A stretch of DNA of 64,000 nt from NCBI RefSeq assembly GCF_004010195.1, contig NC_057754.1:5381781-5445780 (forward strand), given 5' to 3'. This DNA is from Chiloscyllium plagiosum. Its lineage: Eukaryota. Shown piece after piece: positions 581-62,344 of this stretch (positions within the stretch are counted from its first letter, which is position 1; every line of letters starts with the position of its first letter). A program made the translations under genes and the position numbers. The notes beneath the pieces were generated by a model. The model saw only the letters and a list, made by a program, of their open reading frames with translations, searched no databases and had not been told where the DNA came from.

Positions 581-795
581 ACAGCAGGTCAGACAGCATC
601 CGAGGAGCAGGAAATTCGACGTTTTGGGCAAAGGCCCTTCATCAGGACCTCTATAAGGTCACCCCTCTCAACCTCCAACACTCCAGGCAAAGAATTCCCA
701 GCTTACCCAGGGCTTTTGCCCGAAACGTCGAATTTCCTGCTCCTCGGATGCTGCCTGACCTGCTGTGCTTTTCCAGCACCACTCTGATCTTGACT
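581..795. mobile_element. Penelope-like hammerhead element, inverted pair with a short CR1 fragment as spacer
   Basis: Arms 581-646 and 709-795 are reverse complements. 647-708 resembles CR1 sequence. Confidence 0.65.
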
Positions 796-1642
796 ATGAT
801 GTCCAGCCGATGTAGCTTTGCCTGCGTGCATGGGATAGCTATGGAGGGATATGGACCAAACACAGAGCAAATAGTTTAAATTGTGAAAACTCTGCAGCAT
901 GGACAAGTTGGACTGAAGGGGCCTGTCTCCATGCTGTAGACCTCTATGATTCTGTGAGTGTGTCTACAAATCGCACTTTGTGAAAGAGACAACAGGAGGA
1001 ACTAACAAGTTTCAGTAAGTCAATGGTCAATGGCAACTATTTAACAGCCAAATAGATTGCAGGAGAAGTGGATGCTGGTAAAAAGTTTTACAATTTGTAC
1101 ATCCTTCTGGATCGTGTGGACGGACCCTCAATCTCTTGTTCTTATTTAATTCATTTGAGGGATATGGGTTGGCCAGCATTTCTTGCCCGTCCCTAGTTGC
1201 CCCCTTGAGAAGGTGGTGGTGACCTGCCTTCCTGAAGCGCTGCAGCCCACCTGCTGTGAGCTGACCCACAATGCCCTGAGGGAGGGAATCCCAAGATTCT
1301 GACCCAGGACAGCAAAGGAATGGCCGATATATTCCCAAGTTGGGATGGGGAGTGGAGGGAAACCCGAAAGTGGTGGTGTTCCCGTGAATCTGCTGCCCCT
1401 GTCCTCCTAGATGGAAGTAGTCGTGGGTTTGGAAGGTGCTGTCCAAGGAGCCTCGGGGAGTTGCTGCAGTGCACCTTGTAGATGGTACATACTGCTGTGA
1501 CTGATGTCAGTGGTGGAGGGAGTGGACACAAGTGGAAAAAATGCCAATTATTATAATTTGATTTGAAATGCTTCTAAAAAGACAGAGGGTTGCTGCGTAC
1601 ACCACTGCTAGAGAAAACTGAGAAGACTGTACCCCCTAATTA

Positions 1643-1951
1643 TAAGGGACTGTTTAACCAGACTTTTCAAATGTTGATGACTAATATAACATTGAGCAAT
1701 AAACTCACCCAAGCCCCCACCAACCGCAACTCCGTGGCCTTCCTTTCGCAGTGTTTAGACTTGTTCAACCAGGTTAGAGAGAAAAAGCAAGGTCTGTTAT
1801 CACCAGCTTAAACATTACTTAAATTTATGGATTAATGATCAGTTCAGCCCCAAAGGCATTCCATCTCTGCTACAGCCTCTCCGTCAGTGTCATGATCTCT
1901 CCCTCAGCCACAGTCCTTCTCCTTCAGTGCTGCCATCTCTGAGCCGCAGCC
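1643..1951 (+). promoter_or_regulatory. Gene A proximal promoter/5'UTR block with two HNF1-like sites (1807-1819, 1831-1843)
   Basis: Aligns with 47891-48206 upstream of gene B. CTTAAACATTACT and ATTAATGATCAGT resemble GTTAATNATTAAC, and HNF1 is an established regulator of mammalian OAT1/OAT3/URAT1 promoters. Confidence 0.6.
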
Positions 1952-2353
1952 ATGGGGTTCGAAGATATCCTGGAGGATGTCGGAAGTATGGGGAAGTTCC
2001 AAATCATCCACATTTTGTTGCTGGTGTTGCCATCGTTTCTCTCACCTAGTCACAACCTGCTTCAGAACTTCGTGGCTGTTGTTCCTGATCATCACTGCAG
2101 GATCCCTTTGGAAGTGAATGACTCGAGGTACGCCAATGTCACGGGGAGGCTGCAGACGGAGGAACTTCTCCGGGTTTTCATCCCTCTGGACCAGGACCAA
2201 CAGCCGGAGAAATGCCTGATGTACTCCTCACCTCAATGGCACCTTCTGGATCTCAACGGGACGCACGCAAACGTGACTGAGTACCACACGCAGAAGTGCA
2301 CTGACGGGTGGACCTATGACAACTCTAAGTTCAAAGCCACAATTGTCACAGAG
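1952..2353 (+). CDS. SLC22A6-like: Gene A exon 1 ([11 protein letters not shown]...KATIVTE; TM1 and large extracellular loop)
   Basis: Kozak gcagccATGG. Typical SLC22 N-terminus, four N-glycosylation sequons (NDS, NVT, NGT, NVT). Donor GAG|gtaacc at 2354. Confidence 0.95.
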
Positions 2354-5300
2354 GTAACCCCTAAGGATTTCTATCTATTGAAGGTTTCAATGCCATTGAA
2401 TATGTTGTGAAATGGAACGAAGGGGTTTATCTGAGTGTGTACACACCTTTTCTTGCTGAGGGGTTTTTAACTCAACCAGCGGGTAGTGTTTGCAGGAGAT
2501 GGACCACAGATAAAGGTGTGCCTTTGTTTAGTCTGAAGGGCAAAGTGATTCCTGATAAAGGAGTGAAGTCTCAATGCTTATTTTTCGTCCTACATTACCT
2601 CATCTCATTTCGGTAAAACAAACAAAGACAGGACTCATACAATTAAAAGGTCCTTGGGTAAGGTTGTAGAACAGAGAGAGATTAGATTAGATTACATTAC
2701 AGTGTGGAAACAGGCCCTTCGGCCCAACAAGTCCACACCGACCCGCAACCCACCCATACCCCTACATTTACCCCTTACCTAACAAACGTGCAAACTCCAC
2801 ACAGTCAGTCGCCTGAGGCGGGAATTGAACCCGGGTCTCTGGCGCTGTGAGGCAGCAGTGCTGACCACTGCGCCACCATGCCGCCCACGATTTAGGGCTT
2901 CAGCTACATACTTTTCTGGTGTTTGCTTCACATGTGAACAGGCTAGTCAGGAAGGCATTTAGCACGCTTGCCTTCATTACTGAGGCCTTTGAGTATAGAA
3001 GTTGGGATGCAATATTGAGGATGGACAGGACATTGGTGAGGCCCCTTCTGGAATACTGTGTCCAGATCTGGTCACCCTTTTACAGGAAAGATATTATTGA
3101 AGTCTTAGGTGCATTAGTCAGAGGGAAATGGTCTGGGTGGGTAACTCTTCGGAGGGTTGGTGTGGACTTGTTGGGCTGAAGGGCCTGTTTCCACACTGTA
3201 GGTAATCTAATCTAAACTGGAGAGGGTTCAGAGAGCTTTACCGGGATGTTGCCGGGTACGGAGGGTTTGAGTCATAAGGAGAGGCTGGATAGGCTGGGAC
3301 TTTTTTCACTGGAGTATAGGAGGTTGCGGGGTGAACTTATTGAGATTAATAAAATCATGACAACTATAGATGAGTGACAAGTATCTTTTCCCTATGGTGG
3401 GGAGGGTTTTACGACCAGGGGGCCGCATTTTTAAGGTGAGAGGAGAAAGATTTTAAAAAGACCTAAGGGGAACTTTTTTTTGACACAGAGAGTAATTTGT
3501 GTGAGGTAAAGTTGCAACATTTAAAAAACATTTGTATAAGTACATGAATAGGGAAGGTATATGGGCCAGGAGCAGGCAGGTGGGACTAGTTTAGTTTGGG
3601 AATATGCTCGGCACGGACTGGTTGGGCCGAAGGGTCTGTTTTCATGCTGTATGGCTCTATGATTCAATGAGTGACAGCAAATGAACATACAAATAAGGAA
3701 CACTTGGAGGCCATTTGACCCCTTCAAGGTAACCTACCATTTAATAAGAACGCAGCGGATCTGGTTATAACCAAATTCATACTCCTATCTCCTCCTGATA
3801 AAATTCCACCCTCTTGCTTTCCGAGAATCGGTACATTCCTACCTTAAAAATATTCAGAGGTTCTGCTTCTACTGTCTTTGGATGAGAAGAGATGTGAAGG
3901 TGCATGATGAATCTGTGAGAAATTTCTTTACCTCCATGTGTAAAACATGACAGGGTTCAGAAAAGATTTACAAGGATAATGCCAAGGTTAGAGGGCTTGA
4001 GCTGTAGGGAGAGGCTGAATAGACTGGCACTGTTTTCCCTGGAGTGTTGGAGGCTGAGGGGTGACCTTATAGAGATTTACAGATAGGGTGAATAGGCAAA
4101 GTCTTTTCCCTGGGATGGGTGAGTCCGAAGCTAGACGGCATAGATTTAGGGTGAGAGGGGAAAGATTCTAAAGGGATAGAAGGGGCAACTTTTTCACGCA
4201 GAGGGTGGTGCATGTATGGAATGATCTGCCAGAGGAAGTGGTGGAAGCTGGTACAATGTCAACATTTAAAAGGCATCTGGATGGGTATATGAATAGCAAG
4301 GATTTAAAGGGATATGGGCCAAGTGCTGGCAAATGGGACTAGGTTAATTTAGAGTATCTGGTCAGCATGGACAAGTTGGACCGAAGGGTATATTTCCATG
4401 CTGTACAGTTCTGTGACTCTATCTCCGTCTTAAAAGGGCCTCTCCTTACTTTGAAACAGTGACTCCTGGTTATTGATCCTCCCATAGCGGACAACATCCT
4501 TGCCACATCTTCCTCATCAGGATCTTAAATGTTTCACTCAAAACACCTTTTATTCCTCTTAGGTCTGGCAAATGCAAGTCTGTCAAGTCTTTCCTCATAA
4601 GACAACTTGCTCGGTCAAGGTTAATAAACCTTTACTGGACATCTTCCAAAGCATCAACAATTCTTCCATTAGTCAGAGCTGAAAATGTGTTGCTGGAAAA
4701 GCGCAGCAGATCAGGCAGCATCCAGGGAACAGGAGAATCGACGTTTCGGGCATAAGCCCTTCTTCAGGAATGATGCCCGAAACGTCGATTCTCCTGCTCC
4801 CTGGATGCTGCCTGACCTGCTGCGCTTTTCCAGCAACACATTTTCAGCTCTGATCTCCAGCATCTGCAGACCTCACTTTCTCCTTCCGTTAGTCAGGTGA
4901 CCAATACTGTAAATAGATGGGGTCTTCCCCATATAAGTGAAACATGACCTCCTTATTTTTGTATTTCATTTCCCTTGTAATAAAATACTTGCATTCTATA
5001 AACTTTCCTAATTACTAGTACCTGCATTGCAGCCTTTTGTGATTCCCCTGCTCCTTAGAGCGCTGAAATCTCTTACATGCGTCTTTTTAGTCGCCTTGCT
5101 AAAATGGACACTTTCGCATTTTGTCACATTATTCTTTAGAACAAAGAAAATTTCCAGCCCAGGAACAGGCCCTTCGACCCTCCAAGCCTGAGCCAATCCA
5201 AACGTACTGTCTAAACCAGTCGGTCATTTCCTAAGCATCTGTATCCCTCTGCTCCCCACCTACTCATGCATCTGTCCAGACGCATCTTAAATGAATCCAC

Positions 5301-17300: not shown

Positions 17301-20300
17301 ACTCTTTGAGCTTGTTAGAGAGGTTAGGCAAGATGATTAAACAAACTAGTTAGTTAGAAAGGTTAGAAGAGATGGTTGAATTAAATAGTTAGACAAGTTA
17401 GACGAGATGGTGCGACTAACAAGCTAGTTAAGAAGGTTTGAGGGATGATGGAACTAACATTTATTGCCAATCCCTAGTTGCCCAGAGGACCAGTTAAGAG
17501 TCTACCACATGGCTGTGGGTCTGGAAACATATGTAGGCTAGACCAGGTAAAAGGGGAGCAGACTTCCTTCCTTAAAGAACATTAGTCAACCAGGTGAACT
17601 TTTCCAACAATTGACACTTAATTACATGGTCCTCATTAGACCAACTCGTTTGTTTTTTAAATTCAAGATTTTAAATTGAACTCAAATCTCACCATGGCAG
17701 GATTACGGGCCCATGTCGCCAGAACATTAGCCTTTCTCGGTCGCATTTACGTTTTAGTTTTCTTCTTTCACTGCTCTCTTTCCTTTCTTTAACGTACTTG
17801 CTTTCTGTGGAGAGCGGGTTTGTGCAAGGCAGAGGAGAGCGAGCCATCATGGGGAGAATGAGTCCAACATGATGGTGAGAGCAGGCACTCCCAGGTCTCC
17901 TGGAGAGTGAGTCAAAATGGAGGAGCTTAAGGTCATACAGGGAGTGCAAGCTCAGCATGACTCAGCACTTCAGAAAAACTTTTGAACTTTTAACTTTATT
18001 TCTTTTTTTTTCTACTTAATGCTAAGATAGCTGTGAAGTCTAACTTTTAACTTCTTTATCTTTCTACTTTATACTAAGAGGGACTGTAATGTTTAACCTT
18101 TTACTGTTTTTCTACTTTGTACCCAAGATTTTGCACCTAGGTACTTTTGTGCCTAAGATAATGCTGGGAATGGCTACGTTGTATACTTTTCGCTGTACTC
18201 CTGTACCTGAGTACACGTGACAATAAAATCTAATCCCCATTCAACGTCCTATTCATGTTTACGTCCAAAATGGGGTACTTACAAAAGCTTAATGTGTAGT
18301 TGTTATCTGAACAACTACTCAGTTAGCAAGTAACCCCGTGTAAAGGAAGAGAATTGTGAAAATAGGATGTGGTATTGAGAATTTATCCTTCTTTTCCATC
18401 TCTGTGCTGTGGCACCCTCCTAAATGATCTGAAGTTGCCTGAGCGATTTTTTTTTCCCCACTGTTGCGATAATAACCCCTATGTATGTGTGTGTGTGGTC
18501 GTTCTCAAAAGGTGGTTCCCGGAGTCTGCTCGCTGGCTCATTCTGAACGACAAGGCTGATGTCGCTCTGAAACAGCTCAGGAGAGTGGCAAAAATGAATG
18601 GCAAGGAGGAGGAGGGGGAAAAACTCACTATCGAAGTAAGTGATGGTCTTAAAAGTGTGCGTTTTACACTGAAACTCACCCCAGCTTGGTTCCATCACTG
18701 AACCGATGGTCTTTACCCTAATCTTGCAGAGACATATTGTTAGGGCAGCCCGTCCTGATGAAGGGCTTATGCCCGAAATGTCAATTCTCCTGCTCCTCAG
18801 ATGCTGCCAGACCCGCTGTGCTTTTCCAGCACCACACTTGACAAATTGTTCCAAACCTTGGAATGGAGCCAACATCATCAAAGACTCCTTCCACCTCCAA
18901 ATGTAATCTCTTCCAACCTCTTCTGTCAGGCAGCACATACAAAAGTTTAAACACGTGTCCCAACAGATTCAAGAACAGCTTCTTCCCTGCTGTTATCAGA
19001 CTCCTGAGTGGACTTCTCAAATTTCAAACTCATGTTGATCTCGCTGTCTGTGCACCTTCTCTGGAGCCATAACATTGTATTCCTTGCTCTGTTCTATCAC
19101 CCTAATGCGCTTTGTATGGTATGATCTGCCTGTACTGCACGCTCAAAACAAAACTGTCCCTCGGTACGTGTGACAATAATAAATCAAATCAAATCAAAAT
19201 ATATTAACACAGCCTAGATCCTAACGTTTCTTTATTTTAACAGTAAGTGTAAGATGTTGTGTTCCAGATGCAATTCAATTGGTCAAACTTCTCGACTTTA
19301 ACACTTTACTTTTACACTACAGTTAAAATACAGGCAAAATAAAACTCAAAAGAAAAGAATCAGCTTAATTGTAACTATTGAAATGCTTAACAAAATAATA
19401 TATATATATAAAAACTACTAATTAACTGTTCCAACTGAGTAACGTCCCATAAACACACCCTTGGCAAAGGCAAGTTTAGTAAAATAGATTGTCTCACAGG
19501 CAATTCAAGCAGCAAAAACAGAACCCCAGCTTCTCACTGTAACACATAGAGGAAGAAGAGCTTCCACATCCAGCTTCAAGACCCCAGCAACTGCTACTGA
19601 AAACTAGAACTAAAAACCCTGGTTCTGTGGGAGCTTGACCCCACCCATCCAGGCTGCTTCTATTGTTCCAACATTTAAAATCAAGCCCCCAGGCCTCACA
19701 AGCTGCTTGCTTCATTGGTTTTGAGCAGACTGCTTGTCTCAATCTTTCTTCATTACAAAAAAAAAAGAGGACAAAATAGACCTCGTGAAGTCACGCGATA
19801 TTATTGCAATATTTCAGTTGTTTGACATTCTTAGGATCCTGTTAGAAGATATCGCACCTCAATGTTTCAGAGTAGCAAACAGAAATGGCGGGAGATTGAA
19901 GAGGTTAGTTGGGTTCGAAGGCTTCGCTTCAGACCAGCTTGCTCTGGTGTACACTTGGAAGAAACTGGCAGCCTTCCAGCCATGCTGGTGCCATCCAACT
20001 AGGGAGGAGAGATGGTATTTTACATCCGCTACCCTCAGACTAACCTTATCTTCTCCCGCACTCACTCATGTTGGTGGCTCTCTATACACTGAACTTCAGT
20101 TTCATGTCCATGGTTTTGTCATCACCCTTGTTTGTTGTAATACACCTTAAAGAGCACTAAGCTACGGAGCGTTTATGTCATAGAGTCATACAGCACAGAA
20201 ACAGACCCTTCATTCCAACTAGTCCATGCCGAACATAATCCCAAACAAACCGAGTCCCACCTGCCTGCGCTTGGCCCATGTCCCTCCAAACCCTTTCCTA

Positions 20301-23300: not shown

Positions 23301-26300
23301 GAATAGGTTGGGGCTGCTCCTTCGTCAGGTGAAGTGGTACATGACGGCCTCATAATGTTACGACTAGACCGTTAATCCAGGGAGGAAATGAGGACTGCAG
23401 ATGCTGGAGATCAGAGTCAAAAAGGTGTGGTGCTGGAAAAGCACAGCCAGTCAGCCAGCATTCAAGGAGCAGGAGAGTCGACGTTTCGGGCATACGCTCT
23501 TCATCAGGAATTCCTGATGAAGAGCTTACCCTCGAAATGTTGACTCCCGCTCCTCAGATGCTGCCTGAGTGGCTGTGCTTTTCCAGCACCACACTTTTTG
23601 ACTGTTAATCCAGAGATCCAGTAAATGGTTCCGAGGACCTGGGTTCAAATCCAGCCGTGGTCAACGGTTGAATTTAATTCAATAAAAGTGTGTGGAATCA
23701 GAGGGCAGTCAAGAATCAGCCATGTTGCTATGGTCTGGAGTCACACGTGGGCCAGGTAAGGATGGCAGTTTCCTTCCCTAAAGGACATTAGTGAACCAGA
23801 TGGGTTTTTACAGCAATTGGCAGTGGATTCACAGTCATCATTAGACTCTTAATTCCAGATTTTTTATTGAATTCAACGTGCACTATCTGCTGTGGTGGGA
23901 TTCAAACCCAGGTGCCCAGAACGTTACCTGGGTCTCAGAACTAACAGTCGAGCGATAATTCCACTCAGCCATTTCCTCTCCTGAGACAGGCTTCTCACTG
24001 AGAACGAGAATCAGAAGGTTTATTCACAAAGCAACACCCTTAATGGATTACAAATTAAAGATGCGACTAGGCAATCACATGGCAAGGTGTTACACAGATA
24101 TCAAAGGATCCCTACAGTGTGGAAACAGGTCATTTGGCCCAACAAGTCCACACTAAACCTTCGAAGACCATCCCACCCTATCCCTGCAACCCCAACACAT
24201 CCCATGGCTAATCCACCTAGACTGCACATTCCTTGGACACTATGGGATAATTTAGCATGGCCAATCCACCCTAACCTGCACATTCTGGCTATTGAGGGAG
24301 TGCAGTGTAGGTTCACGAGGTCAATTCCTGGAATGGTGGGACTATCTTATGTTGAAAGATTGGAGCGACTGGGCTTGTATACTCTTGAGTTTAGAAGACT
24401 GAGAGGGGATCTGATTGAGACATATAAGATTATTAAAGGATTGGACACTCTGGAGGCAGGAAACATGTTTCCGCTGATGGGTGAGTGCCGAACCAGAGGA
24501 CACAGCTTAAAAATAAGGGGTAGGCAATTTAGGACAGAGTCATGGAGAAACTTCTTCACCCAGAGAGTGGTGGGTGTGTGGAATGCTCTGCCCCAGAAGG
24601 CAGTGGAGGCCCAGTCTCTGGATTCGTTTAAGAAATAGTTGGACAGAGCTCTCAAGGATAGTGGAATCAAGGGTTATGGAGATAAGGCAGGAACAGGATA
24701 CTGATTAAGGATGATCAGCCATGATCATGATGAATGGTGGTGCAGGCTCGAAGGGCAGAATGGCCTACTCCTACACCTATTGTCTATTGTCTATCTTTGG
24801 ACTGCGGGAGGAAACCGGAGCACCCGGAGGAAACGCACACAGACACGGGGAGAACATGCAAACTTCACACAGACAGTCACCCGAGGCTGGAATTAAACCC
24901 AGGTTCCCGGTGCTGTGAGGCAGCAGTGCTAACCAATGAGCCACCGTGCTGCTCTCTTAAAGGTACATGCTTGCCTGCTCATAGACACACGCATCACAGT
25001 GTGGTACGGCAACGGCTCTGCCTAAGACTGCAAGAAACTACAAAGAGTTGTGAACATAGCCCAGTCTATCCTGAAAACCAGCCTCCCTTCCAGTGAATCT
25101 CTAGAGTCTTTTCCCGAGGTTGGGGGGCTTTCAAGACTAGGGGCATATATTTTTAAAGGTGAGAGGAGAAAAATTTCAGAAGGATATAAGAGGCAACTTG
25201 TTTACACAGCAGGTGGTTCATACATCGTATGAACTTCCTGAGGAAGTTGTGGATGTGGGTAGAGTTACACCGTTTAAAAGACATTTGGATAAGTACATGG
25301 ATAGGAAAGGGTTTGGAGGGATATGGACCAGGAGCAGGCAGGTGGGATTAGTTTATGGTCGGCATGGACTGGTTGGACCAAAGGGTCTGTTTCCATGACG
25401 TATAACTCTATTCCATGCATAGTGACTGGCATCAGCACGCTATCACAGCACTGACGTCCGATCCCAAAAGTCGCTGTTGCAAGCACATCGGAGGCAATTA
25501 TCAGTAAGGAAAATTAAAGGGAATGCTGATCCTTCTCTTTGCTGTTGTAGGTTTTCGACCAGTTTTGCCTATTACGGGTTGGCGATAGACCTGCAAGGAT
25601 TTGGAGTTGATATTTACCTCATCCAGCTGATTTTCGGAGCTGTAGACATCCCAGCGAAACTGCTTGCATTTCTCTTCATGAGCCTGATCGGAAGAAGGTT
25701 CACACAAGCCACTTCACTTATCCTGGCAGGGAGCTTTAACCTGGTGAACATCTTTGTCCCAAAAGGTAAGGGTTAATAGTCACAGAACTTGGTCAATTTT
25801 TACCCCAGTTGAGAAATGTTCCACCCCCAGAGGGATGTTCCACAGGTAAGATGTAAGAACTTACGATTGAAGATGCTATAGCAATGGCATGTTGATGAGT
25901 AAAAGGTCATTGGGCAGAGTCTACATGGTTTAGAGAAAGGACAATCATGTTTAGTGAACAATTTATTGAAGTTCTTAATGAAGTAATGTGCATTGTGCAT
26001 AATGGGGAATCAGTGGATTTATGTTTTTAGTTACTCATTAGTGGGATGTGGGTGTCACAGGTTGGGCCCGGCATTTCTTGCCCCTTGAGAAGGTGGTGTT
26101 GAGCTGCCTTCTTGAACTGCTGCAGTCCACCTGTTGTAGGTTGACCCACAATGCCCTTAGAGAGGGAATTCCAGAATTTTGACTCAGCGACAGTGAAGGA
26201 ATGGCTGATATATTTCTAATTCTGGATCAGTGGTGCTGGAAGAGCACAGCAATTCAGGCAGCATCCGAGGACAGGCATAATCGACGTTTCGGGCAAAAGC

Positions 26301-36944: not shown

Positions 36945-37092
36945 AAAAGTGAGGCCTGCAGATGCCGGAGATCAGAGTTGAGAGTGTGGTGCTGGAAAAT
37001 CACGGCTGGTCAGGCAGCATCCGAGGAGCAGGAGAATCGGCGTTTCAGGCAAAAGCCCTTCATTCCTGATGAGGGACTTTTGCCCAAAACGT
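36945..37092. mobile_element. Degenerate hammerhead element inserted in a CR1 fragment
   Basis: Family arm plus attcctgatgagggacttttgcccaaaacgtc. Degenerate duplicated flank caacact. Confidence 0.6.
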
Positions 37093-38972
37093 CAACACTG
37101 CCCATGGCCCTACCATTAGTTATGTAAGCCCTACCCTTATGTGTTGTACCAAAATGCAATACCTCGCATTTATCCAGATTGAACTCCATTTTTCGTCCCA
37201 TTGACCCATTTGATCAAAATCCCTTTGTAATCTTAGAAAACCATCTTCACTGACTACTATGCCACCAATTTTGGTGTTGTCTGCAAACTTACTAACTACA
37301 CCTTCTTGCCACAACTCACTCAATAATGCATTGACATACAGTAGCTCTCAGATGCACCAGATCACTAAGGTAGTAGCACAGATTTCTCAAAGCTTAAAAA
37401 AGAAATCCTCAAACGTCGTGCCAAAGATGGTCTCAATCCAGATTTCATAACTTTTCATTTATTTTCTCTGAAATGTCAGTGGTTGAGGGGGTGACCTTAT
37501 AGAGGTTTATAAAATCATGAGGGGACATGGATAGGGTGAATAGACAAGGTCCTTCACCCCAGGCTGGGGGACTCCAGAATTAGAGGGCATAGGTTTAGGG
37601 TGAGAAGGGAAAGATTTAAAAGGGACCTAAGGGGCAACTTTTTCACGCAGGGGGTGGTGCGTGTATGGAATGAGCTGCCAGAGGAAGTGGTGGAGGCTGG
37701 TACAATGACAACATTTAAAAGGCATCTGGATGGGTACCTGAGTAGGAAGGGTTTAGAGGGATATGGGCCAAATGCTGGCAAATGGGACTAGATAAATGTA
37801 GAATATCTGGTTGGAATAGACGAGTTGGACTGAAGGGTCTGTTTCCGTGCTATACATCTCTATGACTCTATTGTGCATCTCCAATGATTCCATTGTTAAA
37901 ATGGCATGTTGGCTCAGTGGTCAGCACTGCTGCCTCACAGCACCAGGGTCCCAGGTTCGATTCCAACCTCGGGTGACTGTGTGGAGTTTGCACTTTCTCC
38001 CCATGTCTGTGTGAGTTTCCTCCCACAGTCCAAAAATGTGCAGGTTAGGATGGATTGCCCATAGTGTTGGGTACATTAGACAGAGGGAAATGGGTCTGGG
38101 TAGGTTACTCTTCAGAGGGTTGGTGTGGACTTGTTGGGCTGAAGGGCCTGTTTCTACCCACATTAGGGAATCTAATGTAAATTGAACAGCACTGAACTGG
38201 GATCAGCCTTGGGTCCGTGCTAAATAACCTTGGCAGGGAGGCTAGTACACTTGGCCTTAGTGCCTTGGGTCTAGGAAGCCATAATGTGTAAAAATATCCT
38301 CCTTTTGTGAGGTGAAGATCTATCATTTATTGCCCATGGTCTTGGCAGAGGTGATCTATTCAGCTAACTGGAGACAGACATGCACTGCCTCTTCCAGTCA
38401 AAGCCCAATGAATCGAACATTAATTAGATTGTTCATTGAGGCCTGGCAGTGCCCAACCACTCACCAATGGCTGCTACCAGAATGATGCTCAGGAGAATTG
38501 TTTCTGGCGTGACCAAGTGGGCAAGACTGTCACCAGTCACCACCTTCCTCCTCCACCCTATGTCCGATCTCTCAATCAGGTACTGATCGCCAATGATTGA
38601 AGGACTCCCTCCCCTCTCCCCAGCCAATAGGCAGCCCATACTGTTCTACCTGGGCATGGTGACTTCCCCAATGCAACTGGGTAACCAACAGCGGATAAGC
38701 TTTGAGCGGGCCCAAACCTAATACTGGCACAGACGGGAAAGGGGTCAAAGTTCGGGTGTGACATTACACCATCTGTTTATGTGCCTTCCCACTTTGAAAG
38801 CTCCCACCTCTGGAAGCACAAGATTCCGTCCTGTGTGACATTGTTAAACAAGAGGGGGGAGATGACAGCCAAGCAATATTATTGCTGGAGGTTAACCCAG
38901 ATACATGTTCTGGGGACCCAGTTCAAATCCCGCCACGGCAGATGGTGGAATTTGAATTCAATGTTTTTAAAA

Positions 38973-42921: not shown

Positions 42922-42976
42922 GGATTAGTGGTACTGGAAGAGCACAGCAGTTCAGGCAGCATCCGAGGACCAGGAA

Positions 42977-43012
42977 AATCGACGTTTCGGGCAAAAGCCC
43001 TTCATCAGGAAT
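42977..43012 (-). ncRNA. Minimal hammerhead ribozyme motif, intact
   Basis: Reverse complement reads attc-CTGATGA-a-GGGC-tttt-GCCC-GAAA-c-GTC-gatt. Confidence 0.75.
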
Positions 43013-43104
43013 ACAGGCAGAGAGCCTGAAGGGTGGAAAGATAAGCGAGAGATTTTCCTGCTCCTCGGATGCTGCCTGAACTGCTGTGCTTTTCCAGCAC
43101 CACT

Positions 43105-43801
43105 NNNNNNNNNNNNNNNNNNNNNNNNNNNNNNNNNNNNNNNNNNNNNNNNNNNNNNNNNNNNNNNNNNNNNNNNNNNNNNNNNNNNNNNNNNNNNNNN
43201 NNNNNNNNNNNNNNNNNNNNNNNNNNNNNNNNNNNNNNNNNNNNNNNNNNNNNNNNNNNNNNNNNNNNNNNNNNNNNNNNNNNNNNNNNNNNNNNNNNNN
43301 NNNNNNNNNNNNNNNNNNNNNNNNNNNNNNNNNNNNNNNNNNNNNNNNNNNNNNNNNNNNNNNNNNNNNNNNNNNNNNNNNNNNNNNNNNNNNNNNNNNN
43401 NNNNNNNNNNNNNNNNNNNNNNNNNNNNNNNNNNNNNNNNNNNNNNNNNNNNNNNNNNNNNNNNNNNNNNNNNNNNNNNNNNNNNNNNNNNNNNNNNNNN
43501 NNNNNNNNNNNNNNNNNNNNNNNNNNNNNNNNNNNNNNNNNNNNNNNNNNNNNNNNNNNNNNNNNNNNNNNNNNNNNNNNNNNNNNNNNNNNNNNNNNNN
43601 NNNNNNNNNNNNNNNNNNNNNNNNNNNNNNNNNNNNNNNNNNNNNNNNNNNNNNNNNNNNNNNNNNNNNNNNNNNNNNNNNNNNNNNNNNNNNNNNNNNN
43701 NNNNNNNNNNNNNNNNNNNNNNNNNNNNNNNNNNNNNNNNNNNNNNNNNNNNNNNNNNNNNNNNNNNNNNNNNNNNNNNNNNNNNNNNNNNNNNNNNNNN
43801 N
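43105..43801. other. Assembly gap (697 N)
   Basis: Run of N. Confidence 1.
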
Positions 43802-43976
43802 CCATGACTTGTCCTATCTGCCTATCTTCTTTTCCACCTATCCACTCCACCCTCCTCCCGCCCCCGATCTATCACCTTCATCCCCTCCCCTACTCACCTA
43901 TTGTACTCTATGCTACTTTCTCCCCACCCCCACCCTCCTCTCACTTATCTCTCCACACTTCAGGCTCTCTGCCTGT

Positions 43977-44012
43977 ATTCCTGATGAAGGGCTTTTGCCC
44001 GAAACGTCGATT
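43977..44012 (+). ncRNA. Minimal type-I hammerhead ribozyme motif (Penelope-type), core intact
   Basis: attc-CTGATGA-a-GGGC-tttt-GCCC-GAAA-c-GTC-gatt. Predicted cleavage after C44008. Palindromic ACGT helix III. Confidence 0.75.
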
Positions 44013-46100
44013 TTACTGCTCCTCGGATGCTGCCTGAACTGCTGTGCTCTTCCAGCACCACTAATCCACTGCTGTGCTCTTCCAGCATCTGCAGTCATTG
44101 TTATTACCTAGACAGAGAGAGAAAGAGAGAGAGATAAAGAGGTAGAGATAGAGAGATAGATAGTTACAGATAGATAAAGATAGAGATTATGAGAGACAGA
44201 GGGAATGAACCAGCAAAGAGAGAGAGTGAGAGCAAGTGAAACAACAGAACGGATGCCATTTTCTGTCACTAAGCCACCCTTTATTTACATGTGCAAAGTA
44301 CATGCACTCTGACCGGCCAGCTCAGAGCCAGTCCCTAGAGTGAGGACACTGTCTGAGACTCCTGTTTATATCCCAGGGCTCCCTCATTCTAATCCCTACA
44401 GAAAGGAACGGGCCAAAGAATTCAACTAAATGGCGAAAGCTACACATTTTGGGAAGTATTTAAGTTTCTAAAGAATCGAGTAATTACAAGTAGAGCTGTT
44501 AAAGTTAAAATTGTCAAATTTGGTCCTTACCTTTGTTGTTGTCGAATAAAATTGCAACCTGACTGCTCGTGTGCATAGTCCTTTCCCTGAGAGACAGAGA
44601 GGCACCTGAGTAAATTCATCTCCTGGTCGAGTGAGTCCACACGGTCCTGGGGATACCCTGAAGCTAACAACAACAGACACATAAATCTCTACGCTTTTCC
44701 AAATCTGCACAGTTTGAAAAATCGGGAAAATGCTCTTGGTGATTTATCTTTCCCAGATCCAAAGAATGAACCGCCTTTCTCTATGTTGAACTTCTCCTAT
44801 TGTTTTGCAGTCACTTAATCTGCCAATGACCCCTTGGGTTGGCCCAGCAGTTATTGTTCGTTCCTCGTTGTTTTTGAGGAGCTGGACGTCAGCTGCCTCT
44901 TGAACCACTGTTGTGCTTGGGCCATAGATATATCCAAAACCAATATGCTGTCAGGAAGGGAACTCCAGGACTTTGACCCCATTGATAGCGGAGGAATGGT
45001 AATACAGTATCAAGTCAGGCTGGTATGTGGCTTGGAGTGGAACCTTGTAGGTGTTGGGGTGCACATGCGTTAGCTGTCTTTGTTCCACCGAGGTCATGTG
45101 TTTGAAACTCGCTGTCAAAGAAACCTCATTAAGGTCAACTGAACTGCATCTTGTAAATGGCCCACACAGCAGTAAATGCTCACTGGTGATGAAGAAAATT
45201 AGGGGGAAGAGGGTATTGAGATGGATAGAGTCATACAGCATGGACACAGGGCCTTCAGTCCAACCAGTCCATGCCGACCATAATCAGAAAATAAACTAGT
45301 CCCGCCTGCCTGCTCCTGGCCCATATCCCTCCAAACCCTTTCCTGTTCATGTCCTTATCCAAATGTCTTTTAAATGGTATAACTGTACCCACAATCCACC
45401 ACTTCCTCAGGAAGTTCAGTCCAGACATGACAGGCTCTCTGTGTAAAAAAAAAACTGACCCCCGTGTCTTTTTTAAATCTCTCTCTTCTCACCTTAGAAA
45501 TGTGCCCCCTAATTTTGAAATCCACCCCCCCCCCCCCCCCCCCCAGGAAAAGACACCTACCATTCAGCCCATCTATGCCCCTCATGATTTTATAAACATC
45601 CATAAGGTCACTCCCTCAACCTCATACATTCCAGTGAAAAAAGTCCCAGGCCTATCCACCCTCTCTTTATAACCCAAACCCTCCATTCCCAGCAATGTCC
45701 CGACAAATCTCTTCTGAACCCTCTCTAGATTAATAATATCCTTCCTATAACAGGGCAACCAGAACTGGACACAGTACTCCCGAAGAGGTCTCACTAACAT
45801 CCTGTACAACATCAACGTGACGTCGCAACCCCTACACTCGAAGGTCTGAGCAATAAAGGCGAGCGTGCATTTCCATAGCTGCATTTCCCCTACAGCTTCT
45901 TAGTTGCAATCTGTTGTAATAGTTGATTGATTTGACTTATTACTGCCACATGTGCCAAGATACAGAGAAAAATACTGATTTGCATGCTATTCAGACAAAT
46001 CATACCTGGCATAGGTACATCAGGGTGATAGACCCCTCAACCTCCTACCCTTCAGTGAAAAAAAATCCCAGCCTATCCAGCCTCTAGTTATATCTGTTAT

Positions 46101-47860: not shown

Positions 47861-47890
47861 TAAGGATGCAGAGAAGGTAGTTTTATATAG

Positions 47891-48608: not shown

Positions 48609-48989
48609 GTAACGCCTGAGAATTTCTGTCTATTAAAGGTTCCAGTGACATTTATTGTGAAATGGAAGGAAAGTGAATAAATGGATGCGTGTCCCCCAAA
48701 ATAACCTCACACCTGTGAGGTGTTTATAAGTAAAACACCCATGCATATGTGCACATCAACCCAGTGTCCTCAAAATTTCCCAAAGGGTAAAGGTGTGGCA
48801 TTAAGGTATAACGGTTCTACGCTCCTCTTCATGCCTAATCCGCTAATTCCAATGGGTCAAAGCAAAGGCATCTGAACAACCCTGTTACTGTCAGCCAAGG
48901 GCTCAGCTCATAGCATCATTGAGCATGGAAATAGACTCTCAGTCCGAGTGGACCCCATTTACCTCTCCACCCCTGAGGATCCCAGCCTC

Positions 48990-49025
48990 ATTCCTGACGA
49001 AGGGCTCTGGCCCGAAACATCGATT
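48990..49025 (+). ncRNA. Minimal hammerhead ribozyme motif (N7=C, AUC triplet)
   Basis: attc-CTGACGA-a-GGGC-tctg-GCCC-GAAA-c-ATC-gatt. Confidence 0.62.
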
Positions 49026-50552
49026 TTCCTGCTCCTCGGATGCTGCCTGGCCTGCTGTGCTTTTCCAGCAACACACTCTCAACTCACTCTCTCTCAGTCC
49101 AACTCATCCATGCTGTCGAAGCTTCCCAAACCCAAACTAGCCCCCATTTGCTTGCGTTAGGTCCATATCCCCCTAAACCTTTCCTATCCATGTACCTGTC
49201 CAAATGTCTTTTAAATGTTGGAACTGTACCAGCATCCACCACTTCCTCCAATAGTTTGTTCCACACACGAACCACCCATTGTGTGAAAAAGTTGCCCCTC
49301 GGGCCCCTTTTAAGCTTTCCACCTCTCTCACCGTAAAATTATGGCCCTCTATATTTGAACTCCTCCATACGAGGGAAAAGACCTTTGCTACGTTTATTAA
49401 ATCGTGAGAGTATTCCATAGGAGGCCTAACCAATTTCCTGTACAGACGCAACATGGCATTTCAACTCCTATACTCAATGCACTAACCAATAAAGGCAAGC
49501 ATGCTATACACCTTCTTCACTAATCTGTCTACCTGTGACTCCACTTTCAAGGAATAATGAATCTGCACCCCCTGGACTCTTTGTTCAGCAACACTCCCCA
49601 GAACCTTACCACTAAGTGTATAAGTCTTGCTCTGATTTGCCTTTCCAAAGTTGAGCACCTCAAATTTACCTAAATTAAACTCCATTTGCCACGCCTAGGC
49701 CCATCTGATCAAGGTCCTGTTGAACTCTGTGGTAACCTCCTTCACTGTCCACTACTGTGGGTCTCAAGGTCATCTTTAGTCCATGAGGGAAAAAATGGGT
49801 CACTGGTGTTTTTCTCAACATGTAAATGTGCACATGGACAGCGTGATGGCTCAGTGGTCGGCGCTGCTACCTCACAGCGCCAGGGACCTGTGTTCAATTC
49901 CGGGCTTGGGTGACTGTCTGTGTGGAGTTTGCACATTCTCCCTGTCTCTGTGTGGGGTTTCCTCCGGGTGCTCCAGTTTCCTCCCACAATCCAAAGATGT
50001 GCAGGTTAGGGTAGATTGGCCATGCTAAATTGCCCAGAATGTTCAGGGATGTGGAGGTTAGGTGCATTAGTCAGGGGTAGTAGAGGATAATTGGGGTGGG
50101 TAACTCTTTGGAGGGTCGGTGTGGACTTGTTGGGCCAAAGGGCCCGTTTCCACATGAAGGGATTCTATGATATTGATTTTTATATTTTTGCCCTTTTTAT
50201 CTGTCAGGTATGACCACACAAATCAGGAACATGTACGGAGGGTTTGAGTTATAAAGAAAGGCTGGATAGGCTAGGCCTTTTTTCACTGGTGCGTAGAAGG
50301 TTGAGGGTGAACTTATAGAGATTTATAAAATCATGAGGGGTATTAATAAGATGAATGGCAGATGTCTTCTCCCTAGGTGGAGGATTTCAAGACTAGGGGG
50401 CACATGTTTAAGGTGAAAGGAGAAAGATTTTAAGAAGACATGTGGGGCTTTTTTTTTACACAGAGGGTGGTGTATGTGTGGAATGAACGTCCAGAGGAAG
50501 TGGTGGATAAGGGTACAGTTACAATGTTTAAGAGATGTTCAGATAAGTTGTC

Positions 50553-53509: not shown

Positions 53510-54470
53510 TTTGTTTTTATGGGATGTGGGTGTCTCTTGCTGGGCCCAGCATTCATTTCCCCTTGTCCCTAATTGCCCCTTTGAGAAAGTGGGGGGGGAG
53601 CTGCCTCCTTGAACCACGGCAGTCCACCTGCTGTGGGTTGACCCACAATGCCCTGAGGGAGGGAATTTCAGGATTCCGACCAGTGACAGTGAAGGAACAG
53701 GGATATATTTCCAGGTCAGGACGGTGAGAGGCTCAGAGGGGAACTGCAGGGGGGTGGTGTTCCCATGTACCTGCTGCCCTTGTCCTTCGAGATGGAAGTG
53801 ATAGTGGGATTGGAAGGCGCTATCTGAGAATCTTTGGTGATTTGCTGCAGTGCATCTTGTAGATGGTACACACTGCTGCTACTGAGCATCGGTGGTGGAG
53901 GGAGTGGGTGCCTGTCGATTCGGTAAAAACAATGACTGCTGATGCTGGAAACCAGATTCTGGATTAGTGGTGCTGGAAGAGCACAGCAGTTCAGGCAGCA
54001 TCCAAGGAGCTTCGAAATCGACGTTTCGGGCAAAAGCCCTTCATCGATTTGGTGCCAATCGAGTGGGGCTGCTTTGTCCAGGATGGTATGGAGCTTCTTG
54101 AATGTTGCTGGGGCTGTGTTCATCCACGGGCAAGCAGGGAGTATTCCCTCACCCTCCTGACCTGTGCCTGGTCGATGGTGGACAGGCTTTGGGGACTCAG
54201 GAAGTGAATTACTTGCTTCAATATTCATAGCCACTGACCTGCTTTTGCAGCCATTGTGTTTATGTGGTGAGTCCCGTTGAGTGTTTGGTCAATGATAAGC
54301 CCCAGGATGTTGATAGTAGGGAAATTAGTGATGGCAACGCCACTGAATGTCAGCGGACAGTGGTTAGATAGTCTCTTATTGGCGATGGTCATAGCCTGGT
54401 GTTTGTGTGGCGTGAATGTTATTTGCTATTTGTCAGCCCAAGTCTGGATATTGTCTAGATCTTGTAGCGG
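53510..54470 (-). mobile_element. 3' end of a second CR1/L2-type LINE family
   Basis: Recurrent gggatgtggg...gcccttgagaaggtggtggtgagc...ggaattccagga block, also at about 1140-1530, 26035-26540, 44835-45190 and 51525-51850. Confidence 0.6.
53922..54045 (-). mobile_element. Single-arm hammerhead-family element truncated inside the core
   Basis: Same sequence family as 26220-26451. Flanks tcgattcggt and tcgatttggt. Confidence 0.65.
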
Positions 54471-55853: not shown

Positions 55854-55914
55854 GTAAGGATGGCAGAATGGGCACTGCAAACTGTACTGCCCAGTCAGGT
55901 TGTTCAAGCTGTTA

Positions 55915-59555: not shown

Positions 59556-62175
59556 GATATGCCAGCATACACTGTATGAGGCAGTACTACAGTCAATGTT
59601 CATGTGTAAGTCAAGGGTGACTTGGAGTTGGGATACCAGCCTCTGTAGCGTTATTTCAAGCAGGTTCGAACTTCCCCTCAGTTTTGGCGAGCTTCTTATT
59701 GGGCAGACCAGACATCTTTGGGCCTTGCCTGTCTCTGGACCCGGACTGAGACTAGAATGAAGAATATCCCAGTTATACACTCTTTGTCTGGACTGCTAAG
59801 TTGTCTTTAGATTGCTAAACAATTAAAATGATTACTCTGACCACGATTCCATTTTGAATGAGCTTATCCTTCCACGCCCCTTGAACTGGCCAATCGATGT
59901 GAATCATTAGAATTTGAATTAGCTTTCTTGTCACATATACTCACATGACTACAGTGAAAAGTTGCCATTTACAGGGCCATCTTAGGTACCGAGGTACCCA
60001 GGCGCAGAGATTGTTAAGGAAAACTTCTGAGGGAAAAAGAATAGAAAAATAGAGAATTAGTAAGTCCAGCATGACAGATGTTTGGATTAATTATTTTCTA
60101 ATTTAATCCAAAAATTAATCCAAGTTACCCTTTATTTCCACATAAACATTGACTATAGTACTGCCTCATACAGGGTCAGGCACCAGCATATCCCTGACAC
60201 TTGATCCTTTTATCTCAGGCAGGCCTGTCGTTAAGCTTGAAAAGGTTCAGAAAACATTAACAGTGCAGGAAGCTTCCGCTATTTCAGGTGTATAGTTTTT
60301 GCCGGTTTATCAAGAGGGCCCAGTTTAAAACAAAGTTTGATTAGGTTACCTACAGTATGGAAACAGGCCCTTTGGCCCAACAAGTTCACACCGACCCTCC
60401 AAAGAGTAACCCATCCCCCCGTACATTTACCCTGAACACGATGGACAATTTAGCACAGCCAATTCACCTGGCTTACACATCTTTGGACTGGGGGAGGAAA
60501 CCCACACAGACACAGGGAGATTGTGCAAACTCCACAGAGACAGTCACCCGAGGTAGGAAGTGAACCTGGGTCCCAACTGCTGTGCGGCTGCAGTGCTAAT
60601 CACTGAGCCACCATGCCACCCTGCTTTTAAGCTGTTAATTCAGTTCTGGTCTCCCTGCTATAGAAAAGATGTTTTTCAGCTTGAAAGGATTCAGGAAAGA
60701 TTAACAAGGATGTTGCCAGGGTTGGAGCCATGGGAGAGGCTGAATAGGCTGGGGCTATTTTTACTGGAGAGTCAGAGGCTGAGGAGTGACCTTATAGAGG
60801 TTTGTAAAATCACGAAGGGCATGGATAGGGTGAATAGCCAAGATATTTTTCCCAGGGGTGTGGGTGTCCTAAACTAGAGGACATAGGCTTAAGGTGAGAG
60901 GGTAAACATTTAAAAGGGATCGAAAGGGCAGACTTTTTCATGCATTGGGTGGTGGGTGTATGGAATGAGCTGCCAGAGGAAGTGGTGGAGGCTGGTACAA
61001 TGACAACATTTAAAAGGCATCTGGATGGGTACGTGAATAGGAAGGGTTTGGAGGGATATGGGCCAAGTGCAGGCAGGCAGGATTAGATTGGGTTTGGATA
61101 TTTGGTCGGCATGAACGAGATGGGCTGAAGGGTCTATTTCGGTGCCGCACGTCTCTGTGACAGCCAGCCAATAATGAATTGACAAGCAGAAACCTTAGTC
61201 AAGGCCGTTCCTCCAGATTGGCACTGGGTCCCCAATGATGGAACTGAGTGTGTTCATGAACAAAAGACCCAAAGAACCACAGATGATGGACAAAGCAGGA
61301 ACTGTTTCAGAAACTCAGCAGGTCTGGCAGCGTCTGTGGAGAAAGAGCTGAGTTAATGTTTCGAGTCCAGCACTGCAAGACCTGCTGAGTTTTTCCAGCA
61401 ATTCTAGTTGGTGTTGAGGGATATTGGAAACTAACTGAGACGGTTGTGGGCAATCTATGTTAAAATACCATTCACGACCCGACCTTATGAGTGGGTTTAC
61501 GCCCGAAACATTGATTCTCCTGCTCTTCAGATGCTGCCTGACCTGTTGTGCTTTCCTAGCGCCACAGTTTTTGATTTAAGAATGGTAATCTTTAGCTCAA
61601 CATTCAGGAAAACAGGTTGGTGGGGCTAGGTTGTAAGAATAAAACATTGTTGCTGTGAGAGTTTAAAGCTGCAACACTCTGCGCCAATAGCTGTCAGTTC
61701 TGGTTACTCAGTTATATTAAGCTGGAGATGGTACAGAAGAGACTTAACAGGATGTTGCGGGGTATGGGGGGGGTGGTTTGAGTTATAAGGAGAGGCTGGT
61801 TAGGCTGGGACTTTTTTTCACTGGAGTGTAGGAGTTTGAGAGGCGACATTATAAAAGTTTATAAAATAATGAAGGGTATAGATAGTATTAATGGTTTTCC
61901 CTAGGATGGAGGATTTCAAGACTAGGGGCACATTTTTAAGGTGACAGGATAAAGATTTTAAAAAGACACAAGGGACAAACCTTTTACACAGAGGGTGGCT
62001 TGTGTGTGGAATGAACTTCCAGAGGAAGTGGTGCTTGTGGGTACAATTACAACTTTTAAAAGACATTTGGATAGCTACATGAATAGGAAAGGGTTTGGAG
62101 GGATATTGGCCAGAAGCAGGCAGCTGGGACTAGTTTAGTTTGGGATCATGGTCGACACAGACTGGTTGGACAGGA

Positions 62176-62211
62176 ATTCCTGATGAAGAGCGTATGCTCG
62201 AAACATCGACT
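62176..62211 (+). ncRNA. Minimal hammerhead ribozyme motif (compensatory stem II variant)
   Basis: attc-CTGATGA-a-GAGC-gtat-GCTC-GAAA-c-ATC-gact. A G-C to A-U covariation in stem II relative to other copies. Confidence 0.62.
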
Positions 62212-62344
62212 CTCCTGCTCCTTGGATTCTGCCTGACCAGCTGCGCTTTTCCAGCACCACAACTCTATTTAAGCCCATGTCTCTACAAACAGTAGGCAAC
62301 ACACAGCAAACGGGTGAATGACTCACCAGTATCATTACATTGCA

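What the first reader, a model, noticed from the sequence alone, without database searches (positions are those of the whole stretch)
581..62267. High-copy family of short mobile elements carrying a minimal hammerhead ribozyme
Seen: about 12 insertions (581, 4677, 18754, 23381, 26220, 36945, 42922/43977, 46101, 48960, 53922, 61487, 62172) share an ~100-130-nt unit. Most retain attc-CTGAnGA-a-[4-bp stem, 4-nt loop]-GAAA-c-GTC-gat. Variation fits hammerhead structure: N7 is T, A or C, the stem II loop varies (tttt, ttat, tctg, gtat), stem II covaries (GGGC/GCCC versus GAGC/GCTC), and helix III is the palindrome ACGT. Known: minimal type-I hammerheads with a palindromic helix III that work as dimers are characteristic of Penelope-like element termini. 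Inference: these are non-autonomous Penelope derivatives. At roughly one per 5 kb, this genome could hold a very large number of ribozyme motifs that standard annotation misses.
Basis: partly seen in the sequence, partly recalled or inferred. Interest (0 to 1): 0.85.

Follow-up and report, generated by a model that had tools for sequence, protein, structure and literature searches.

The report
Penelope retroelement stubs with minimal hammerheads
The twelve short repeats are real and carry the small hammerhead self-cutting RNA motif already described for Penelope-like jumping genes; they are likely dead tail-end stubs of such an element, mostly broken and often mirror-image pairs, so the catch is correct but ordinary.

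Summary
The repeats are real: 12 loci with 20 arms. The motif fits the published minimal hammerhead of Penelope-like elements (PLEs): CUGANGA, one extra base, G10.1-C11.1, GAAA, a loop-less ACGU helix III, then GUC. Only 4 of 20 arms pass a blind descriptor (0.005 expected), 7 of 12 full-span cores carry CpG transitions in the core, and covariation is not significant (91/500 shuffles). Seven of 12 loci are head-to-head inverted pairs, 6 of 12 have clear target duplications, and 3' ends fall at two sites about 35-40 nt apart, one of each in 5 of 5 measurable pairs. These are the published PLE inverted pLTR and one-sided tail. One copy runs at least 175 nt further upstream into an assembly gap. 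Best reading: 5'-truncated, dead-on-arrival PLE ends rather than a dedicated non-autonomous family. I could not show a link to a PLE RT/GIY-YIG ORF, and cleavage is untested. No intact core has an intact same-strand neighbour nearer than 16.7 kb, and paired arms are predicted to fold into long hairpins. Earlier notes of this scan report the same kind many times, in this genome and others. New member of a known kind; low interest.

The parts
581..807 (.). Locus A: inverted pair, arm A1 (581-647, minus; core 618-645 with G12A) and arm A2 (709-807, plus; starts inside helix II), about 60 nt apart
   Evidence: no clear duplication (score 8)
4677..4882 (.). Locus B: inverted pair; minus arm has an intact hammerhead (4740-4767) and a short 3' end (cut+63); plus arm lacks the core and has a long 3' end (cut+96); 14-nt target duplication with 1 mismatch (4663/4883)
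18753..18837 (+). Locus C: single arm, core 18755-18782 with C15.2U and a broken first helix I pair, short 3' end (cut+55); possible 11-nt duplication with 1 mismatch
   Evidence: (score 9)
23381..23603 (.). Locus D: zero-spacer palindrome centred at 23510/23511; minus arm long (cut+99), catalytic bases intact but A.C in helix II; plus arm short (cut+64), broken; target duplication 14 nt with 1 mismatch
26220..26451 (.). Locus E: zero-spacer palindrome centred at 26318/26319; minus arm intact (26283-26310), short (cut+63); plus arm G12A, long (cut+97); target duplication of 15-18 nt
36945..37093 (.). Locus F: long minus arm (cut+94) starting inside the core, plus a short plus arm (core 37066-37093, G12A, broken helix II) that stops at the predicted cut site
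   Evidence: duplication not above null (score 7)
42922..44108 (.). Locus G: one insertion in a GA/GATA microsatellite with a 14-nt duplication. Inverted arm G1 (42922-43051, minus, intact core 42981-43008, short end), direct partial arm G2 (43051-43104, starts at about the cut site), N gap, direct arm G3 (43802-44108, long end): two direct repeats plus one inverted
43105..43801 (.). Assembly gap (697 N) where the body of the element would lie; true length and content unknown
43802..43976 (+). Pyrimidine-rich tract upstream of the hammerhead; multicopy in other runs; likely the 3' UTR/pLTR of a longer parent element
   Evidence: protein searches with its translations gave nothing useful
43977..44012 (+). 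Intact minimal hammerhead: helix I 2 bp plus 1 after a U.U mismatch, CUGAUGA 43981-43987, extra A 43988, helix II GGGC/GCCC, GAAA 44001-44004, ACGU 44004-44007, predicted cut after C44008
46101..46255 (.). Locus H: inverted pair without a core (arms join at about the cut site, 4-nt spacer); long (cut+102) and short (cut+60) ends; 13-nt exact target duplication
48948..49085 (+). Locus I: single arm with about 38 nt upstream of the core, core 48994-49021 with G16.2A, short end (cut+64); 10-12-nt duplication
53922..54047 (-). Locus J: single arm truncated inside CUGA, long end (cut+98)
61483..61574 (+). Locus K: degenerate single arm, core lost, short end (cut+61)
62172..62266 (+). Locus L: single arm, GAGC/GCTC helix II variant, G16.2A, short end (cut+59); begins with the same palindromic junction letters as locus D; no duplication

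Best explanation
The twelve loci carry the published minimal hammerhead motif and are likely dead-on-arrival, 5'-truncated 3' ends (pseudo-LTR plus tail) of an endonuclease-bearing Penelope-like retroelement family. SHOWN: the motif, head-to-head arms at 7 of 12 loci, target duplications of about 10-18 nt at 6 of 12, two preferred 3' ends about 35-40 nt apart, variable 5' ends, and CpG decay. INFERRED mechanism: an RT/GIY-YIG protein from an intact copy elsewhere makes staggered nicks in the target. It reverse-transcribes uncleaved element RNA from fixed sites downstream of the hammerhead and usually aborts near the hammerhead. The mirror arm is built in the same event, by fold-back self-priming or by priming from the second nick, leaving the tail on one arm only. 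The ribozyme is inherited baggage. In the parent's tandem transcript it would cleave slowly after GUC as a dimer or with protein help; in these stubs it is mostly mutated, has no near same-strand partner, and is predicted to be buried in a long hairpin.
For: Motif: equals the Cervera 2014 consensus CUGANGAH-G..C-GAAA-N-palindrome-NUH; many published rows have the same C/G,U,C helix III. Blind descriptor 4 vs 0.005. Duplications: score >=10 at 6 of 12 loci vs 0 of 132 cross-locus and 12 of 947 random flank pairs. 3' ends: 9 arms at cut+55..64, 7 at cut+94..102, 2 elsewhere, of 18 measured; one long and one short in 5 of 5 pairs B, D, E, G, H (ends set by hand). This matches the 30-40-bp one-sided tail and inverted 5'-truncated copy (Craig 2021), the inverted pLTR with 31-bp tail, 8-10-bp duplications and palindromic junctions (Arkhipova 2013), and two RT start sites with both strands extended (Frangieh 2024). 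Arms of one locus differ by 5.3% on average (8 comparisons) vs 13.0% between loci (172). Junctions differ at every locus. Raw RNA read depth falls from about 1,100-1,400 on core and tail to about 60-110 on 43879-43955 and 17-40 on 43802-43845. 88,689 contigs of one DNA run lie on the stretch at >=85% likeness (not a copy number). The best-supported variants inside the motif are N7, a loop II base and the G16.2 CpG (83 further rows not shown).
Against: No PLE ORF was reached. The only long copy ends in a gap; Pfam found no GIY-YIG in the 10 of 30 frame segments scanned; a motif regex over all six frames found none; three protein searches with the UTR translations failed. The 697-N gap, if sized correctly, is too short for a roughly 2.5-kb ORF, so locus G may be an internally deleted copy. 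The upstream depth drop is confounded by subfamily divergence at the 85% threshold. Covariation within the window is not significant. 17 of 20 arms begin between about 10 nt upstream of the core and the cut site (read from the alignment), tighter than plain random truncation would give. Six of 12 loci have no duplication at score >=10.
Confidence: 0.8

Rival explanations
1. A dedicated non-autonomous short element (SINE- or retrozyme-like, about 100-130 nt) derived from a PLE end, with its own masters transcribed from just upstream of the hammerhead and mobilised in trans.
For: 5' ends cluster at the hammerhead; 317 loose read ends before 43977 in run X21; D and L share the same junction letters and the GAGC stem; locus G may be too short to hold an ORF; non-autonomous PLE derivatives are described (Craig 2021 passages; bioRxiv 2026.07.22.740005).
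Against: 5' ends range from the cut site to more than 175 nt upstream and junctions differ at each locus; the upstream tract is multicopy; the loose ends at 43977 also mark where subfamilies diverge; no head-to-tail tandem array of the unit, which defines non-LTR retrozymes, is present (one search lists none at these loci).
Confidence: 0.13
2. Some stubs are live ribozymes in host pre-mRNA: intact cores cleave in vivo (in trans-dimers or with protein help), so intact copies on the sense strand of introns are purged.
For: Inside the two host genes, 0 of 7 sense arms vs 3 of 4 antisense arms keep an intact core (Fisher p=0.024; full-span arms only 0/5 vs 3/3, p=0.018). Arm F2 ends at, and arm G2 starts at about, the predicted cut site.
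Against: Post hoc and tiny: over all 20 arms p=0.109, and gene limits are only guessed from exon remnants. The ViennaRNA dimer model (-18.9 kcal/mol) loses to non-catalytic folds (-24.6; monomer -11.4 each). Paired loci fold into hairpins of -51 to -200 kcal/mol. Published PLE minimal hammerheads do not cleave as monomers and cleave weakly as dimers, or need the PLE protein.
Confidence: 0.1
3. The unit belongs to a non-Penelope repeat and the hammerhead look is incidental.
For: No Rfam hammerhead hit, no significant covariation, helix I only 2-3 bp with pair probability 0.00-0.24 in monomer folds, no ORF link.
Against: All four non-descriptor features of published minimal hammerheads are present except significant covariation; the tail, inversion and duplication pattern is PLE-specific; family-wide variation is strongest at N7 and loop II (partial list).
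Confidence: 0.05

Closest known systems
Minimal hammerheads (min-HHR) in the pLTRs of metazoan Penelope-like elements (Cervera & De la Pena 2014, PMC4209133; read: text parts 1-2 of 4, supplement file 2 part 2 of 3; file 1 not searchable)
   Same: CUGANGA, unpaired base between 9 and 10.1, G10.1-C11.1, GAAA, palindromic 15.2-16.2 with no loop 3, short helix I; mostly dispersed single motifs from truncated PLEs, and dual motifs on opposite strands 100-700 bp apart.
   Different: Helix II is 4 bp and helix I 2-3 bp, at the short end of the published range; no cartilaginous fish appears in the alignment part I read; the association with an RT-EN ORF was not shown here.
Insertion structure of EN+ PLEs: inverted pLTR, optional 30-40-bp tail, palindromic junction (Arkhipova et al. 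2013, PMC3846280, passages; Craig et al. 2021, PMC8557442, passages)
   Same: Head-to-head inverted 5'-truncated copy, tail on one end only, short target duplications, two direct plus one inverted repeat (locus G), insertion into a microsatellite.
   Different: Stubs are extremely short (about 85-230 nt); duplications are somewhat longer (10-18 vs 8-10 bp in the rotifer examples); no ORF seen.
Anolis Poseidon element PAc (Frangieh et al. 2024, PMC11167929; read: parts 1-2 of 4)
   Same: Two fixed RT start sites downstream of the hammerhead cut site defining the tail; uncleaved RNA is the main template; both target strands are extended.
   Different: In PAc the tail is the start of the ORF; here tail spacer lengths of 22-25 nt between subfamilies (alignment) do not keep a reading frame, so the tail looks non-coding.
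Non-LTR retrozymes of animals (bioRxiv 10.64898/2026.07.22.740005; read: parts 1 and 3 of 5 and passages; supplements not seen)
   Same: Protein-free, type I hammerhead-bearing sequences related to PLE pLTRs; reported in the one chondrichthyan genome sampled.
   Different: Retrozymes are head-to-tail tandem arrays with a hammerhead in each unit; here copies are single or head-to-head.

Membership tests
PLE minimal hammerhead (min-HHR) | Catalytic boxes CUGANGA and GAAA, NUH cleavage triplet | tested here: met
   All present in 9 of 12 full-span arms (G12A in the other 3); arms were chosen by their CUGANGA, so that box is circular
PLE minimal hammerhead (min-HHR) | Unpaired base between 9 and 10.1 and G10.1-C11.1 pair | tested here: met
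   Extra base in 12 of 12 (A 11, G 1); G-C in 12 of 12
PLE minimal hammerhead (min-HHR) | Palindromic 15.2-16.2 with no or tiny loop 3 | tested here: met
   ACGU in 8 of 12; the other 4 are CpG transitions
PLE minimal hammerhead (min-HHR) | Covariation in helices | tested here: inconclusive
   1 of 9 pairs, 2 cells, 91/500 shuffles reach it; only 12 close sequences
PLE minimal hammerhead (min-HHR) | Self-cleavage as dimer or with protein help | not testable with these tools
   Needs in vitro assay; no begin/end pile-up in single-cell poly(A) reads, a library that is unlikely to show it
Rfam hammerhead families | Covariance-model match | tested here: not met
   No hammerhead family among 21 matches at E<=10
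Endonuclease-bearing Penelope-like elements | Single ORF with PLE-type RT and GIY-YIG endonuclease linked to the repeat | tested here: inconclusive
   No ORF inside duplication-bounded stubs; the long copy ends in a gap; no genome held; searches failed
Endonuclease-bearing Penelope-like elements | Inverted 5'-truncated copy next to the direct copy | tested here: met
   7 of 12 loci
Endonuclease-bearing Penelope-like elements | 30-40-bp tail on one end only | tested here: met
   3' ends at cut+55..64 (9 arms) or cut+94..102 (7 arms) of 18; one of each in 5 of 5 pairs
Endonuclease-bearing Penelope-like elements | Short target-site duplications, no poly(A) tail | tested here: met
   6 of 12 loci score >=10 vs 0/132 and 12/947 in nulls; no A tail at any end shown
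Non-LTR retrozymes | Head-to-tail tandem units each with a hammerhead | tested here: not met
   No tandem array at these loci; same-strand full-span cores are 2.8-18.7 kb apart

The most novel reading that the evidence does not exclude
Intact stubs self-cleave in vivo inside host pre-mRNA, and selection strips intact hammerheads from the sense strand of introns. Here 0 of 7 sense vs 3 of 4 antisense arms inside genes are intact, and two arms end at the cut site. Shark-type genomes would then hold a population-scale record of PLE hammerhead activity, which has never been shown in vivo.
Probability: 0.1. Interest if true: 0.6.

Novelty: new member of a known kind. Interest (0 to 1): 0.15.

Why it matters
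As it stands it matters little: it extends a class described in 2014 to one more family in a lineage that my literature searches did not show being described at motif level, although PLE expansion in whale shark introns and retrozymes in one chondrichthyan are in preprints. Its use would be statistical. A very large set of short, duplication-bounded stubs could test two open points genome-wide: how the inverted arm and one-sided tail are made, and whether the PLE hammerhead ever cuts in vivo (strand bias in introns, ends at the cut site).

Tried and rejected
No genome is held for this window, so no genome-wide count or extension was possible. Exact pattern scans found nothing in viral contigs, metagenome contigs or prokaryote genomes. 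Searches with translations of the upstream tract gave no usable hit: longer proteins, 259 candidates, none at E<=0.001; near-length, 10 candidates, none at E<=0.01; representatives, 2 hits that are unrelated tandem-repeat sequences. Pfam on read-through frames covered 10 of 30 planned segments (4 of 6 frames of 43802-57672, all 6 of 59555-63999) and found one RVT_1 and no GIY-YIG; the other 20 were not scanned by Pfam, and a six-frame motif regex over the whole window found no GIY-YIG-like motif. No RNA holder is on record among indexed runs. In raw single-cell reads both directions are about equal and no start or end pile-up appears, which is uninformative on cleavage. A 1,269-nt contig of run X15 extends 1,177 nt upstream of 43803, but its letters are not given. 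The within/between divergence had two misplaced anchors and was discarded; one search replaces it. Rfam microRNA matches are far below gathering scores and only reflect the hairpins. The tail as ORF start was rejected because spacer lengths do not keep frame. Lunse et al. 2017 is not held; I know it only as cited in PMC6765202 (passages).
Full report
SETTING. The window is vertebrate DNA dense in repeats. It holds exon remnants of two tandem transporter genes on the plus strand; one exon matches MFS_1 below the curated cut-off, and the SLC22 label is recalled from the motifs. Several LINE remnants match RVT_1. That the host is a shark is a recalled resemblance echoed by earlier AI notes; no call established it, and no genome is held. 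The stretch 43802-44110 is found in runs of four coded organisms.

THE OBSERVATION. The unit is at every coordinate given. BLAST and alignment resolve 12 loci with 20 arms. A pattern from the copies gives 12 matches against 0 in 100 shuffles. A blind descriptor modelled on the published minimal hammerhead gives 4 hits (4767-, 26310-, 43008-, 43981+) against a mean of 0.005 in 200 shuffles. Twelve arms span the core. In these, N7 is T 10, A 1, C 1; the extra base after A9 and the G10.1-C11.1 pair are present in all 12; loop II varies. These arms were chosen by their CUGANGA, so conservation of that box is circular. Seven of the 12 carry a CpG transition: G12A in 3, C15.2U in 2, G16.2A in 2. Five keep all catalytic bases and the Watson-Crick palindrome, and one of the five has an A.C mismatch in helix II. 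The claimed covariation rests on one pair in two arms, only one of which has a fully paired stem; 91 of 500 shuffles reach it. Rfam gives no hammerhead match among 21 hits at E<=10.

Seven of 12 loci are head-to-head inverted pairs. Junctions differ at every locus: zero-spacer palindromes at D and E, a 4-nt spacer at H, longer or uneven joins at A, B, F and G. Arms of one locus differ by 5.3% on average (8 comparisons) against 13.0% between loci (172 comparisons). Flank duplications score 10 or more at 6 of 12 loci, against 0 of 132 cross-locus and 12 of 947 random pairs. The 3' ends are bimodal: of 18 arms measured, 9 end 55-64 nt after the predicted cut site, 7 end 94-102 nt after it, and 2 end elsewhere; F2 and G2 were not measured (F2 stops at the cut site, G2 at the gap). 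In 5 of 5 pairs with both ends at these sites, one arm is long and one short (ends set by hand). Coordinates 42922 and 43977 are one insertion in a 14-nt duplication, with an inverted arm, a partial direct arm starting at about the cut site, a 697-N gap, and a direct arm with at least 175 nt of pyrimidine-rich sequence upstream of the core.

OUTSIDE EVIDENCE. Four of the 24 listed runs were laid on 43802-44106. In DNA run X1, 88,689 contigs lie on it at 85% likeness or more; the tool warns that this is not a copy number. In raw RNA run X21, 1,795 of 12,955,460 records lie on it, about equally in both directions, with no pile-up of starts or ends. Depth is about 1,100-1,400 over core and tail, about 60-110 over 43879-43955 and 17-40 at the far left, so the upstream tract belongs to the family but is much rarer; subfamily divergence contributes to the drop. 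Among the 40 variant rows shown (83 not shown), those inside the motif are N7, one loop II base and the G16.2 CpG. One X15 contig runs 1,177 nt further upstream, but its letters are not given.

COMPARISON WITH WHAT IS KNOWN. Cervera & De la Pena 2014 (PMC4209133; text parts 1-2 of 4, supplement 2 part 2 of 3) define this motif, report thousands per genome in coelacanth and Xenopus, mostly as singles from truncated PLEs and sometimes as opposite-strand pairs, and find no monomer and weak dimer cleavage. Craig et al. 2021 (PMC8557442, passages) and Arkhipova et al. 2013 (PMC3846280, passages) describe the inverted 5'-truncated copy, the 30-40-bp one-sided tail, short duplications and palindromic junctions, the latter read as self-priming. 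Frangieh et al. 2024 (PMC11167929, parts 1-2 of 4) show two RT start sites defining the tail, extension of both strands, insertion from uncleaved RNA, and a hammerhead that cuts only with the PLE protein. A 2026 preprint (10.64898/2026.07.22.740005, parts 1 and 3 of 5 and passages) finds tandem retrozymes in one chondrichthyan and cleavage in 1 of 9 Xenopus dimers tested; its supplements were not seen and may list this family. A whale shark preprint (10.1101/443036, passages) notes PLE expansion in introns. PMC6765202 and PMC6155905 were seen as passages. Searches showed no paper describing this family's motif in sharks; subscription papers and repeat databases were not searchable.

MECHANISM. 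The stubs are best read as aborted insertions of an endonuclease-bearing PLE. Shown: motif, inversion, duplications, two 3' ends, variable 5' ends, decay. Inferred: staggered nicks, reverse transcription of uncleaved RNA from the two fixed sites, early termination near the hammerhead, and formation of the mirror arm in the same event. Zero-spacer palindromes favour fold-back self-priming; one long and one short arm also fits priming from both nicks; these data do not separate the two. The ribozyme is unlikely to work in the stubs. Same-strand full-span cores are 2.8-18.7 kb apart, and the nearest two intact same-strand cores are 16.7 kb apart. Paired loci fold into hairpins of -51 to -200 kcal/mol, and the first helix I pairs have probability 0.00-0.24 in monomer folds. 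The ACGU dimer model (-18.9 kcal/mol) loses to non-catalytic folds (-24.6).

WHAT REMAINS OPEN. No RT/GIY-YIG ORF was linked to the unit, so membership in the PLEs rests on the motif and the insertion anatomy. A dedicated short non-autonomous master is possible, since 17 of 20 arms start between about 10 nt upstream of the core and the cut site (alignment) and the gap at G may be too short for an ORF. One post hoc pattern is worth a genome-wide test: inside the two host genes 0 of 7 sense arms and 3 of 4 antisense arms have intact cores (p=0.024), but over all 20 arms p=0.109 and the gene limits are uncertain.

VERDICT. Real, correctly recognised as a PLE-type minimal hammerhead, overstated in intactness and covariation, and of a kind described since 2014. 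Earlier notes of this scan report the same kind many times in this and other genomes; they are unchecked AI notes and were not counted as evidence. New member of a known kind; interest 0.15.

Noticed in passing
window 57671-59553: Minisatellite of a 23-bp unit, about 80 copies, giving long open frames on both strands.
   Followed up: no
window 1943-34120 and 48198 onward, plus strand: Two tandem transporter genes with near-identical first exons (SLC22-like by recalled motifs; MFS_1 below cut-off for one exon); most stubs lie in their introns.
   Followed up: partly
window 37066-37093 and 43051: Arm F2 ends at the predicted cut site and arm G2 starts at about it (2-3 nt ambiguity); possible footprints of cleaved RNA, not beyond chance with 20 arms.
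   Followed up: partly
window 61308-61395 and 36144-36190: Small inverted-repeat elements weakly similar to the tail of this family, probably a second related family.
   Followed up: no
window 23300-23334, minus strand: A CUGACGA box followed by A and a G-rich start with no downstream GAAA, 50 nt from locus D; may be a truncated remnant of another hammerhead family.
   Followed up: no
window 30992-31150, 32976-33248, 35140-35373, 46286-46402: 52-53-bp tandem expansions inside copies of a dispersed repeat, repeated independently or by a roughly 2-kb local duplication.
   Followed up: no
window 5211-6580, 46816-47109, 63094-63717: LINE remnants; three of four fragments tested match RVT_1; none is attached to a hammerhead stub.
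   Followed up: partly
window 23503-23518 and 62172-62184: Loci D and L share the same palindromic junction letters and the GAGC helix II variant; L has only about 7 nt of the inverted arm, so it may be a recurrent junction or a copied junction.
   Followed up: no
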